Shown here: positions 3,001 to 6,000 of the stretch, piece after piece
How positions within the stretch are numbered: position 1 is the first letter of the stretch
Layout of the letters: the number at the start of each line of letters is the position of its first letter
Assembly (NCBI RefSeq): GCF_057098645.1
Contig: NZ_CM169472.1
DNA length: 64,000 nucleotides
Reading direction: 5' to 3' (one strand)
Position numbers: made by a program

Positions 3001-6000
3001 TTCTGATATCGGGGTTGCAAGTTTAAAAATACATTATTGTCTCTGGAATGAAGAGGAATACAATGAAAAATTATCAGTTCCTCCAGTAATTGATGATATC
3101 CCTTCATTACAAAAAAATACTATTGTTTTTCCTAGCGAAGGTAATTTCCCGTGGTCAATATTTAGTAATGACTCGGTAATGTGGGAAACTCAAATCAGTC
3201 AGGATGAATTTGAAAATGCATACTGTCTGATGATTTGGGCAGATCCCATTGGTAGTGCTGCTTTTTTTGATGGTAGTCAATACTGGAAAGGTGTACTCAG
3301 AATTGATGATATGTCTACGCTAAAGGATAATAAAAAGGATGAAGGAAAGAATTATGTAAATCACATTACCGAGGTAAATCTGAAAATATCACAAGGGGTT
3401 ATTTCATATTTTATTGATTTGGTTGAAAAATACAGCTCCGATAGTTTTAATGAACTGAAACTAATACATGATGAAATAAAAAAAGGAAACAGAAATGCAC
3501 TGGGGAGATTAGGTGTAATGGGTCTATCCATAGGGGATAATGATACATGTTATATGTCTATGGCAGTTGATGTTTATGAAGCTAAAAACAGAAATGATAC
3601 AGGCAGGAAAGAAGATCTTTACGATGGCAATTATTATAATGAGCAACGTAAAGTAGCCTTCGGTCCTGATGGTGGTTGTATAAATAACAATCCAATATAT
3701 TACGACCCTGATCATACAACACCTTTCAGCCCTTATTTTGCAGTAAAAGTTAAATGGGGGCAATCAAACATTAGCATATATGATTTTAAATCACCAATAA
3801 AGCAACTATATGCCGAAATGATACGTATTGGTAATGATGGGCGTATATACAGTAATGAGGGCTTTTCTAATCTCAATTGGGGGATTATTGGAAAACAACT
3901 CGAACTTACAAGTAAAGATATGAAAGGTTTTGCTGCTCTTGATCCGAGGTCAAATCATGATGAACATGACGATGCAGCCACAGATATGGGGTATGAAATA
4001 GCAGGTTCGGCTACTTCAGATAAAAATTACCCAGTAAAATTTGACCGGAGGACATTATTTTTCCTCACACTAAAATCACTCAGGGAAAATGATCTCTTTA
4101 CTTGTTTAGGTGCTGAGACTTATAAAGCAAAACAGGAAGCTTTAAAGACAGATCAACAAACCAAAAGATGAAGATAAGCGCTGGAAATTTATGAATAGTG
4201 TTTATCTCATAATAAAAAATCAATGATTTTATCAACGGGAGTGCCGCCTATGCGAGCTGTTATTGTTAAATCATCACCAACATCTACAGGTGGAAAAGTT
4301 TTACTGGGAATAGATATCGTTACAAACGATGGCAACCCCGTTGCTCTTATAGGTATGCAGGCATCCTGTCCTGCCTGTAAAAAAGGTATCGGTGATATTG
4401 TTGCCAAAGGGCCACACCAACAATTTATTAATGGTATAGCGATTGCTCTTGAAGAGGATGTTGTTGCCTGTGGCTGTCCTGAAGGAAGTAATATAGTTTT
4501 ACCATTGACTAAATTGACACAAATTAAATGAGAATCGGTCCCGTTACAATAAACACCTTACTATTAAAATTATGGACCTATTTATATATTAATTCCTTTA
4601 CCCCATAAAGCGGTAAAGGAATCATGTATCATTGGCACTAATAATAAGTCTGAGCACAGATAGTCAATTGTATCACGACGTCTGTTTCAGGCGGCGGGCA
4701 TACTGGTAAGTCGAAACACACCCGTCGTTGTTTGCATCAAGATAATCCGCCCACCACGGCTTCATCTCGCTCCGTTCCTCCAGATATTCAGCCTAGTGAA
4801 TATAAGCAGTCCGAACACGGTTTCTTTCCTGATAGCTCATCTATTTCCGATGGTTTCTTTGCTCCATAACTCCGATCACCGGGAAAATTTTGATTTAGCA
4901 TTTATCAGTCAAACAAAAGGTGGTCAGTCTGGTGGTCTTGACAATCTCAATTTTTTGTTTTAGCTTACCAATCAGCCAGTTAATGGCTACGGCGATCCCA
5001 GTCAGAGGAGCCAAATTCTAAAAATTCGCTTTTTTACCGCAATGTCACTGACCTTAGTTGAACATTGTTTTTTAACGGATAGCGGGTTTTTAACATCTTA
5101 AGCGCCCTCGACCTTTATGGGTGAGGGCGTTTTGCTATGAACGCCATCACCATTTTCCCCTCGATTATAAAACTTGAGTTATTCAGTAGTCTCCCCTCTT
5201 GCAACTCACACCCAAAACTGCCTAACGAAAAGTTATTAATTTTCAATCATATTGCTATCAGGATTTACATTTTTTCGCTGTGCTAGAAAGGGCGCATTTA
5301 TGTTAGCTCGTTCAGGGAAGGTAAGCATGGCTACGAAGAAGAGAAGTGGAGAAGAGATAAATGACCGACAAATCTTATGCGGGATGGGAATTAAACTACG
5401 CCGCTTAACTGCGGGTATCTGCCTGATAACTCAACTTGTGTTCCCTATGGCTGCGGCAGCACAAGGTGTGGTAAACGCCGCAACCCAACAACCAGTTCCT
5501 GCACAAATTGCCATTGCAAATGCCAATACGGTGCCCTACACCCTTGGAGCGCTGGAATCGGCCCAAAGCGTTGCCGAACGTTTCGGTATTTCGGTGGCTG
5601 AGTTACGCAAACTCAACCAGTTTCGTACGTTTGCTCGAGGTTTTGATAATGTCCGCCAGGGTGATGAACTGGATGTCCCGGCACAAGTTAGTGAAAATAA
5701 TTTAACCCCGCCACCGGGTAATAGCAGTGGCAACCTTGAGCAACAAATAGCCAGTACTTCACAGCAAATCGGGTCTCTGCTCGCCGAGGATATGAACAGC
5801 GAGCAAGCGGCAAATATGGCGCGTGGATGGGCCTCTTCTCAGGCTTCAGGCGCAATGACAGACTGGTTAAGCCGCTTCAGTACCGCAAGAATCACGCTGG
5901 GCGTGGATGAAGATTTTAGCCTGAAGAACTCCCAGTTCGATTTTCTCCATCCGTGGTATGAAACGCCTGATAATCTCTTTTTCAGTCAGCATACTCTCCA

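What the first reader, a model, noticed from the sequence alone, without database searches (positions are those of the whole stretch)
4683..4778. Short minus-strand ORF with a GGAGG-type RBS in the island-to-backbone junction
Reverse strand encodes MKPWWADYLDANNDGCVSTYQYARRLKQTS preceded by GGAGGAACGGAGCGAG. It could be a small protein gene or the remnant of a longer gene lost at the island boundary.
Basis: seen in the sequence. Interest (0 to 1): 0.2.

Follow-up and report, generated by a model that had tools for sequence, protein, structure and literature searches.

The report
Leftover tail of a dead integrase gene
The short ORF is real but is not a gene of its own: it is the last 30 codons of a broken, mostly deleted integrase gene at the edge of a genomic island in E. 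coli O145:H28, an ordinary kind of genomic fossil.

Summary
The ORF and its GGAGG are in the sequence. The true limits are ORF 4765..4673 and GGAGG 4781..4777, both on the minus strand. The window is E. coli O145:H28.

Window 4673-4879 (-) is about 86% identical in DNA to the last 203 nt of intact 420-aa P4-type tyrosine integrase genes. In other E. coli these genes sit beside tRNA-Asn. The 30-aa peptide aligns to integrase residues 391-420 (77% identity, E=5e-15).

About 1,060 nt of the 5' end of the gene are gone. What is left carries an in-frame TAG and a 1-nt deletion. The 'RBS' is simply the inherited codons Leu-Glu-Glu-Arg, which read the same in intact integrases.

Two diverged copies of the same remnant do not keep the ORF:
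- One has a frameshift inside it.
- The other has lost the GGAGG and moved the ATG.

pN/pS is about 0.8 between remnant copies, against 0.03 between intact integrases over the same codons.

The island/backbone junction is the 21-bp tRNA-Asn direct repeat at 4998-5018. Beyond it the sequence is 99% identical to the K-12 asnT-yeeJ spacer.

The small-protein reading is not supported. Low interest. The one oddity is that the remnant is inverted relative to the island's att repeat.

The parts
4673..4765 (-). The 30-codon ORF plus TGA stop. It equals codons 391-420 and the native stop of the ancestral integrase.
   Evidence: sequence, ORF list. BLASTP 23/30 identical to residues 391-420 of the intact integrase L003:4002-5261(-), E=5e-15.
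4777..4781 (-). GGAGG, the supposed Shine-Dalgarno. It lies inside codons CTG-GAG-GAA (Leu-Glu-Glu) of the ancestral integrase frame.
   Evidence: all three remnant copies in that alignment and both intact integrases read CTGGAGGAACGGA[G/T]CGAGATG; a further diverged remnant (L022) reads CTGGATAAACGG, so the GGAGG is lost there.
4673..4879 (-). The whole integrase pseudogene fragment, about the last 67 of 420 codons. The 5' ~1,060 nt of the gene are absent.
   Evidence: 175/203 nt (86%) identical to the 3' end of the intact integrase genes of MRY15-117 and A30; translations; the intact homologue has Arm-DNA-bind_3, Phage_int_M and Phage_integrase; the 67-aa remnant matches no Pfam family.
4793..4795 (-). 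In-frame TAG that replaces a Lys codon (AAG) of the intact integrase. This stop is what makes the 30-aa ORF start at the internal Met.
   Evidence: The E7-1N7 copy has CAG here and the L022 copy CAA.
4843..4844 (-). Site of a 1-nt deletion (frameshift) relative to intact integrases. It is shared by all remnant copies.
   Evidence: the gap in GGAAA-TAGATG versus GAAAAGCAGATG.
4802..4804 (-). TAT codon that corresponds to the presumed catalytic tyrosine (Y378 of the intact enzyme, AAYIH motif). It lies upstream of the 30-aa ORF and outside it.
   Evidence: Its position at the end of the PF00589 match (residues 205-382) is the basis; the catalytic role is inferred. Mutated to Cys (TGT) in L022.
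4880..4997 (+). Right-end segment of the island. Positions 4906-4997 are conserved at the right ends of other asn-tRNA islands. Positions 4880-4905 have no match outside the 27 genomes that carry this remnant.
   Evidence: 698 genomes match from about 4906 or 4915 up to 5000; the same segment sits just upstream of cbl, at the end of Rhs-containing islands.
4998..5018 (+). attR direct repeat: the last 16 nt of tRNA-Asn (CCAGTCAGAGGAGCCA) plus AATTC. This is the island/backbone junction.
   Evidence: 21/21 identical to the asnT 3' end in the same genome, and the start of 99% identity to K-12; only two copies flank the 13.7-kb island; chance expectation 0.01-0.03.
5019..5326 (+). Backbone spacer between asnT and the yeeJ-type inverse-autotransporter gene.
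   Evidence: 398/403 identical to K-12 MG1655; annotations.
4250..4531 (+). PAAR-domain gene, the last gene of the island's orphan vgrG module. It converges on the integrase remnant.
   Evidence: PF05488.
4532..4672 (.). AT-rich spacer between the PAAR stop and the integrase stop. It holds an 11-bp-stem hairpin at 4592-4622. Found only in the 27 genomes with the remnant.
   Evidence: 27 of 5426 genomes; fold, -13.9 kcal/mol.

Best explanation
The ORF is a non-functional fossil: the 3'-terminal fragment of a P4-type tyrosine integrase gene. That gene once belonged to an asn-tRNA-associated genomic island.

Shown:
- The last ~67 codons survive at 4673-4879 on the minus strand.
- The first ~350 codons are deleted (arm-binding domain, central domain and nearly all of the catalytic domain).
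- The surviving piece carries a 1-nt deletion and, in the O145 lineage, an in-frame TAG.
- That TAG happens to leave an internal Met codon (M391 of the enzyme) as the first start after a stop.
- The upstream codons Leu-Glu-Glu-Arg happen to spell GGAGGAACGG, so the fragment mimics a small gene with a strong RBS.

Inferred:
- One old deletion created the fragment. All copies share the same 5' breakpoint and the same 1-nt deletion.
- Since then it has drifted neutrally.
- It is not expected to make a functional product.
- By comparison with strain SX48, it is the vestige of a second integrase that converged on the island's vgrG/PAAR module.
For: - DNA homology: 141 E. coli genomes match 4640-4800. 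Apart from the 27 genomes that carry the remnant itself, the matches in every row listed lie inside annotated tyrosine recombinase/integrase genes.
- Extent: 86% identity over 203 nt, ending exactly at the integrase stop codon.
- Intact homologues are 420 aa, lie next to tRNA-Asn, and have Arm-DNA-bind_3, Phage_int_M and Phage_integrase domains.
- The peptide equals residues 391-420, 77% identical, E=5e-15.
- A TAG and a frameshift lie upstream.
- Diverged copies break the ORF. E7-1N7 has a 1-nt deletion in about codon 23, giving 25 aa from this ATG. L022 has lost the GGAGG, shifted the ATG and changed the Tyr codon to Cys.
- Between the window and L022 the ORF segment is the least conserved part of the region: 88.2% against 90.8-97.5%.
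- pN/pS is 0.83 between remnant copies (11.5 nonsynonymous, 3.5 synonymous changes). It is 0.03 between two intact integrases over the same 55 codons.
- No promoter-like site on the minus strand in 4400-5300, and no Rfam match.
- Not annotated by PGAP in any of the five genomes whose annotation of this stretch was inspected ('none').
- The exact O145 peptide is absent from a collection of about 15 billion proteins.
- Position and orientation match the intact integrase of the SX48 composite island.
Against: - The ORF is intact and identical in all O145:H28 genomes examined, and differs by a single residue in poultry and other strains. These genomes are over 99% identical across the whole region, so this says little.
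- GGAGG upstream of a short ORF is rare in this window, 1 of 427.
- Gene callers did call the MKQWW variant on 5 contigs.
- Expression was not and cannot be tested here.
- The pN/pS estimate rests on only about 15 substitutions.
Confidence: 0.95

Rival explanations
1. It is a genuine small-protein gene. The 30-aa peptide would be translated from the GGAGG/ATG, having been recruited from the integrase C-terminal tail.
For: - A strong SD-like motif and an ATG.
- The only short ORF in the window with GGAGG upstream.
- The ORF is intact in every near-identical copy examined; the exact O145 form in 7 loci and a one-residue variant in 7 others.
- The MKQWW variant has been called by gene finders on 5 contigs.
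Against: - The SD and the ATG are inherited codons, also present in intact integrases.
- The SD spacing is poor: 11 nt for GGAGG, 4 nt for GGAG.
- The ORF is frameshifted in E7-1N7. In L022 the SD is destroyed and the start moved.
- All four window/E7-1N7 substitutions inside the ORF are nonsynonymous.
- pN/pS is about 0.8.
- No promoter-like site on that strand.
- Never annotated by PGAP in the genomes inspected.
Confidence: 0.03
2. It is a chance ORF in non-coding junction DNA, with no coding ancestry.
For: ORFs of 30 aa are abundant by chance: 619 of at least 30 aa in 64 kb.
Against: There is highly significant homology, in frame and ending at the same stop codon, to the C-terminus of intact integrases.
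Confidence: 0.005
3. The fragment is kept because the DNA or RNA has a cis-acting role. Examples would be leftover integrase or Xis binding sites near attR, a 3'-end or terminator region for the PAAR operon, or an antisense RNA.
For: - The remnant persists in three lineages that differ by 5-10%.
- It lies 119 nt from attR.
- A hairpin lies in the adjacent spacer.
Against: - Conservation is no higher than in neighbouring non-coding DNA.
- No Rfam match.
- No terminator-like site by the scan.
- Arm-type sites of P4-like elements are not known to lie inside the 3' end of int (my own knowledge).
Confidence: 0.015

Closest known systems
P4-type (tRNA-associated) tyrosine integrases of E. coli asn-tRNA islands: WP_072693178.1 (MRY15-117/SX48) and WP_240767855.1 (A30). 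This is the same broad group as the integrases of the HPI and pks islands at asnT/asnU/asnV/asnW.
   Same: - 84.8-86% nt identity over the last 203-210 nt, with the same stop codon.
- 77% aa identity over the 30 residues.
- Association with tRNA-Asn islands that carry vgrG/Rhs/PAAR cargo.
- asn tRNA genes are known island hot spots with such integrases, and the region undergoes inversions (PMC8209727).
   Different: - Only 16% of the gene survives.
- The arm-binding, central and catalytic domains are missing, and there are a stop codon and a frameshift.
- It lies at the far (attR) end of the island.
- It is inverted relative to asnT and the direct repeat, instead of adjacent to the intact tRNA.
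The island's own intact integrase at the asnT end (WP_000055685.1, RM9872 2568260-2569522).
   Same: The same family and domain architecture and the same island.
   Different: - Only 69% nt identity to the remnant over 146 nt, and opposite orientation.
- The remnant is therefore not a duplicate of it. It derives from a second integrase lineage.
Degraded or immobilised genomic islands with decayed integration modules. One example is the E. coli HPI, fixed at asnT with its right direct repeat deleted (PMC8209727).
   Same: Both show decay of part of an integration module at an asn-tRNA island.
   Different: Here both direct repeats and one integrase are intact. Only the second integrase has decayed.

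Membership tests
Functional P4-type tyrosine integrase | N-terminal arm-type DNA-binding domain (PF13356) | tested here: not met
   Present in the intact homologues at residues 3-87. There is no homology to it anywhere in window 4300-5400.
Functional P4-type tyrosine integrase | Catalytic domain PF00589 with the full catalytic residue set | tested here: not met
   The reconstructed 67-aa remnant matches no Pfam family. Only the final stretch around the Tyr codon survives, and the 30-aa ORF lies wholly beyond the domain, which ends at residue 382.
Functional P4-type tyrosine integrase | Uninterrupted reading frame of about 420 codons | tested here: not met
   5' truncation at about 4879, a 1-nt deletion at about 4843/4844, and a TAG at 4795-4793.
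Integrase pseudogene fragment (descent from the family) | Significant sequence homology, in the ancestral frame, to family members | tested here: met
   86% nt identity over 203 nt, E=1e-65. 77% aa identity, E=5e-15, ending at the shared stop codon.
Integrase pseudogene fragment (descent from the family) | Location in a tRNA-bounded island with direct repeats | tested here: met
   asnT and its 21-bp repeat at 4998-5018 bound a 13.7-kb island. The remnant's orientation is non-canonical.
Bona fide bacterial small-protein gene | Start codon, RBS and frame conserved across diverged homologues | tested here: not met
   E7-1N7 has a frameshift. L022 has lost the GGAGG and moved the ATG.
Bona fide bacterial small-protein gene | Purifying selection on the peptide | tested here: not met
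   pN/pS is 0.83 against 0.03 for intact integrases. The sample is small, about 15 substitutions.
Bona fide bacterial small-protein gene | Evidence of transcription and translation | not testable with these tools
   There is only a negative promoter-consensus scan. No expression data were available.

The most novel reading that the evidence does not exclude
The integrase tail has been recruited as a small protein in the O145:H28 lineage. In tyrosine recombinases the C-terminal tail contacts the neighbouring protomer (my own knowledge). A free tail peptide, made from the accidental GGAGG/ATG, could then modulate the island's intact asnT integrase and so damp excision. Nothing here supports expression or selection, but expression was not excluded.
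Probability: 0.02. Interest if true: 0.4.

Novelty: already known. Interest (0 to 1): 0.06.

Why it matters
It matters mostly for annotation.
- The ORF should not be called as a small-protein gene. At most it should be marked as an integrase pseudogene fragment.
- It shows how a decayed gene can mimic a convincing small gene, with a strong SD-like motif, an ATG and an open frame.
- It fixes the right border of the asnT island precisely, at the direct repeat 4998-5018.
- It shows that this orphan vgrG/PAAR island is a composite that once had two convergent integrases. That is a small datum for the history of rearrangements at the four asn-tRNA hot spots of E. coli.

Tried and rejected
- **EF-hand-like loop.** DANNDGCVS looks like a Dx[DN]xDG calcium loop. 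I rejected this reading. The same motif (DANSDGYVS) is the conserved tail of intact integrases, and no EF-hand family matched; the only Pfam hit was a sub-threshold one to an unrelated domain (E=0.036).
- **Protein database search.** A 55-aa reconstruction returned only four short ORFs. Two are other copies of this same remnant in the same PAAR-yeeJ context (P0001; P0003 = L022/L023). P0002 is identical to the E7-1N7 remnant ORF. P0004 lies among small gene fragments on a 3.6-kb contig, probably another decayed integrase. The search did not return full-length integrases, presumably a limit of its word index. I therefore do not read it as evidence for a stand-alone family.
- **Duplicate of the island's own integrase.** Rejected: only 69% nt identity.
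- **Search for an intermediate form.** I looked for a full-length inverted integrase next to this PAAR spacer. None was found in 5426 complete E. coli genomes, and a scan of GTDB species representatives gave no hit.
- **Site-specific inversion or integration models.** Worked out by hand, none of them gives the observed junction of truncated int, 26 nt, then island right end. The junction therefore looks like illegitimate recombination. This remains unexplained.
- **RNA and transcription scans.** The Rfam scan and the promoter/terminator scan of 4400-5300 gave nothing relevant: no Rfam match, no terminator-like site, and only one promoter-like site, on the plus strand.

Full report
**Observation**

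The minus strand of the window reads ...CTGGAGGAACGGAGCGAG ATG AAG CCG TGG TGG..., and a 30-codon ORF (MKPWWADYLDANNDGCVSTYQYARRLKQTS) ends in TGA. The exact coordinates are ORF 4765..4673, GGAGG 4781..4777 and a second GGAG at 4773..4770. The finding's 4683-4778 is therefore off by 10 nt at one end and 3 nt at the other. A 30-aa ORF is not remarkable in itself: the window has 619 ORFs of at least 30 aa. This one is, however, the only one of the 427 ORFs of 30-60 aa with GGAGG within 18 nt upstream.

**Where it lies**

The window is E. coli O145:H28, 99.9% identical to RM9872 and relatives. In RM9872 the region reads as follows:

- mtfA and asnT(+).
- An intact 420-aa tyrosine integrase (+).
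- A few accessory genes: an integrase-domain pseudogene, HigA and an HTH protein.
- tssG and tssF(-), then vgrG(+), two hypothetical genes and a PAAR gene(+).
- About 0.8 kb without annotation.
- A yeeJ-type inverse autotransporter gene.

The last 16 nt of tRNA-Asn plus 5 more (CCAGTCAGAGGAGCCAAATTC) recur at window 4998-5018 in direct orientation. From 4998 onward the sequence is 99% identical to the K-12 asnT-yeeJ spacer. The island is thus 13.7 kb, bounded by asnT and this repeat, and the ORF starts 233 nt inside its right border.

**What the ORF is**

A BLAST of 4640-4800 against 5426 complete E. coli genomes finds 141 genomes. Apart from the 27 genomes that carry this same structure, the matches in every row listed fall inside annotated tyrosine-type recombinase/integrase genes, at up to 90% identity.

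The homology runs from the integrase stop codon (window 4673-4675) to about 4879. It is 175/203 nt (86%) identical to the 3' end of the 1263-bp integrase genes that lie next to tRNA-Asn in strains MRY15-117 and A30. These intact proteins have the P4-type architecture Arm-DNA-bind_3 + Phage_int_M + Phage_integrase.

The 30-aa peptide aligns with residues 391-420, the tail beyond the catalytic domain (which ends at residue 382). Identity is 23/30, E=5e-15.

Translating the remnant in the ancestral frame gives ...MSYQERNRVRTAYIH*AEYLEERSEMKPWWADYLDANNDGCVSTYQYARRLKQTS*. The intact enzyme reads ...MSHQERNSVRAAYIHKAEYLEERIEMMQWWSDYLDANSDGYVSAYQYARRLKQAS*. Three lesions are visible:

- A Lys codon has become TAG (4795-4793).
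- There is a 1-nt deletion just upstream (about 4843/4844).
- Everything 5' of about 4879 is gone, roughly 1,060 nt or 84% of the gene.

The ATG of the 'small ORF' is the enzyme's internal Met391. The 'RBS' is the codon string Leu-Glu-Glu-Arg, which intact integrase genes spell identically, CTGGAGGAACGGATCGAGATG.

**Is the stand-alone ORF conserved?**

It is not. The same remnant, with the same 5' breakpoint and the same 1-nt deletion, occurs in three diverged lineages.

1. O145:H28 and near-identical poultry and other strains. In the 489 nt between the PAAR stop and the repeat, most of the non-O145 copies differ from the window at only one base. That base is a nonsynonymous change in codon 3 (Pro versus the ancestral Gln).
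2. Strain E7-1N7, 93.6% identical over the region.
   - The TAG is CAG.
   - A 1-nt deletion inside the ORF changes its last third; from this ATG the frame is 25 aa ending ...YAAA*.
   - All four substitutions inside the ORF are nonsynonymous.
3. GCA_910664965.1 (L022).
   - GGAGGAA has become GGATAAA.
   - The Met codon has shifted (EMK to EKM).
   - The presumed catalytic Tyr codon is now Cys.
   - The ORF segment is the least conserved part of the region: 88.2% against 90.8-97.5% for the flanks.

Over the 55 surviving in-frame codons, two remnant copies differ by 11.5 nonsynonymous and 3.5 synonymous changes (pN/pS 0.83). Two intact integrases differ by 1 and 8 (pN/pS 0.03). The counts are small but the contrast is clear.

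Other negative evidence:

- No sigma-70-like promoter on the minus strand in 4400-5300, and no terminator-like site.
- No Rfam family match.
- PGAP annotates nothing here in any genome inspected.
- The O145 peptide is absent from a collection of about 15 billion proteins. The Gln variant was called on only 5 contigs, without a name. The neighbouring PAAR protein, by contrast, is listed in 2852 blocks of the assembly collection.

**Mechanism**

The best explanation is that the ORF does nothing. An ancestral deletion removed most of a second integrase gene. The stump has since accumulated a frameshift, a stop and neutral substitutions. In the O145 lineage the new TAG happened to expose an internal Met downstream of codons that look like a Shine-Dalgarno sequence. 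I put this at about 95%. The homology, the truncation, the lesions and the lack of conservation are shown. The single origin and the lack of expression are inferred.

**History of the remnant**

It is not a copy of the island's own asnT-proximal integrase: identity is 69% and the orientation is opposite. In strain SX48 the left part of the O145 island (tRNA-Asn, integrase, integrase-domain gene, HigA, HTH, hypothetical gene) is colinear at 84-92%. Beyond an Rhs/DUF2169 module, the SX48 island ends in an intact integrase, and the 3' end of that integrase is the counterpart of the remnant. It has the same relative position and orientation, and it abuts a second, inverted tRNA-Asn.

The remnant is therefore the vestige of a second integrase that converged on the vgrG/PAAR/Rhs cargo. 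Inversions of the asn-tRNA region and multiple integrase lineages at these four tRNA genes are documented (PMC8209727).

One point is unexplained. In O145 the truncated 5' end is followed, after 26 unmatched nt, by the canonical island right end, which is conserved in about 700 genomes, and by the direct repeat in the opposite orientation. None of the site-specific recombination schemes I worked out by hand produces such a junction, so an illegitimate deletion or inversion is the likely cause. I found no intermediate form.

**Comparison and novelty**

This is a pseudogene fragment of a well-known family, the P4-type tRNA-associated integrases. It fails every test for a functional integrase (domains, frame) and every testable criterion for a small-protein gene (conserved start and RBS, purifying selection). 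Decayed integration modules at island borders are commonplace. Novelty: already known kind. Interest: low (0.06).

The most novel reading not excluded is a lineage-specific, translated integrase-tail peptide that modulates the intact integrase. I put it at about 2%.

Noticed in passing
window 4673-4879 versus 4998-5018; L021 (SX48) 78-1582 and 14142-15641: The integrase remnant is inverted relative to asnT and the attR repeat, and lies between the cargo and the canonical island right end. In SX48 the homologous island is bounded by two inverted tRNA-Asn genes with convergent integrases and has no right end or repeat. How the O145 junction arose is unexplained.
   Followed up: partly
window 8132-9442: A 1311-bp IS3-family element (orfA 8186-8512, orfB 8509-9399, programmed frameshift) splits the yeeJ-type adhesin gene. 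Its site is strain-specific among O145:H28 genomes: absent at this site in RM12761, at another site and orientation in RM9872, near the 5' end of yeeJ in Z1323HEC0422, and inside vgrG in FWSEC0002.
   Followed up: partly
window 2512-4249 (between vgrG and PAAR): The cargo between the conserved vgrG and PAAR genes is a swappable cassette. O145 has hypothetical proteins of 139 and 422 aa with no Pfam hit on record. Poultry and other strains have 116-117 and 394 aa proteins instead. The homology break falls at about 4249, one base before the PAAR start at 4250. These are probable T6SS effector/immunity genes of unknown type.
   Followed up: no
L006 33986-39289 (RM9872); window 355-2508 for vgrG: The island carries only tssG, tssF and vgrG/PAAR, with no other T6SS core genes in its 13.7 kb. 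It is therefore an orphan or truncated T6SS module.
   Followed up: no
window 4592-4622: A perfect 11-bp-stem hairpin (ATTCCTTTACC...GGTAAAGGAAT) lies in the AT-rich spacer between the convergent PAAR and integrase stop codons. It has no U-tract on either strand. Folding energy is -13.9 kcal/mol for the 60-nt stretch 4586-4645.
   Followed up: partly
window ~5089-5120: A GC-rich stem followed by a T-run (GCGCCCTC...GAGGGCGTTTT) lies in the backbone spacer and is identical in K-12. It looks like the terminator that follows asnT in island-free strains (this role is my inference). It is now separated from asnT by the island. The consensus scan did not report it, perhaps because its 13-nt loop exceeds the scan's 8-nt limit.
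   Followed up: no
window 4850-4963 (+): The GenBank annotation of RM12761 (CP007133.1) calls a 37-aa plus-strand gene here. It overlaps the integrase remnant and the island right end, and is probably another spurious call.
   Followed up: no
L024 (Logan SRR516389 contig, 3.6 kb): A 64-aa ORF (P0004) is 72% identical to the reconstructed remnant. It sits among other small gene fragments, one with a weak Phage_int_M hit. This is apparently an independent decayed integrase of the same family.
   Followed up: no
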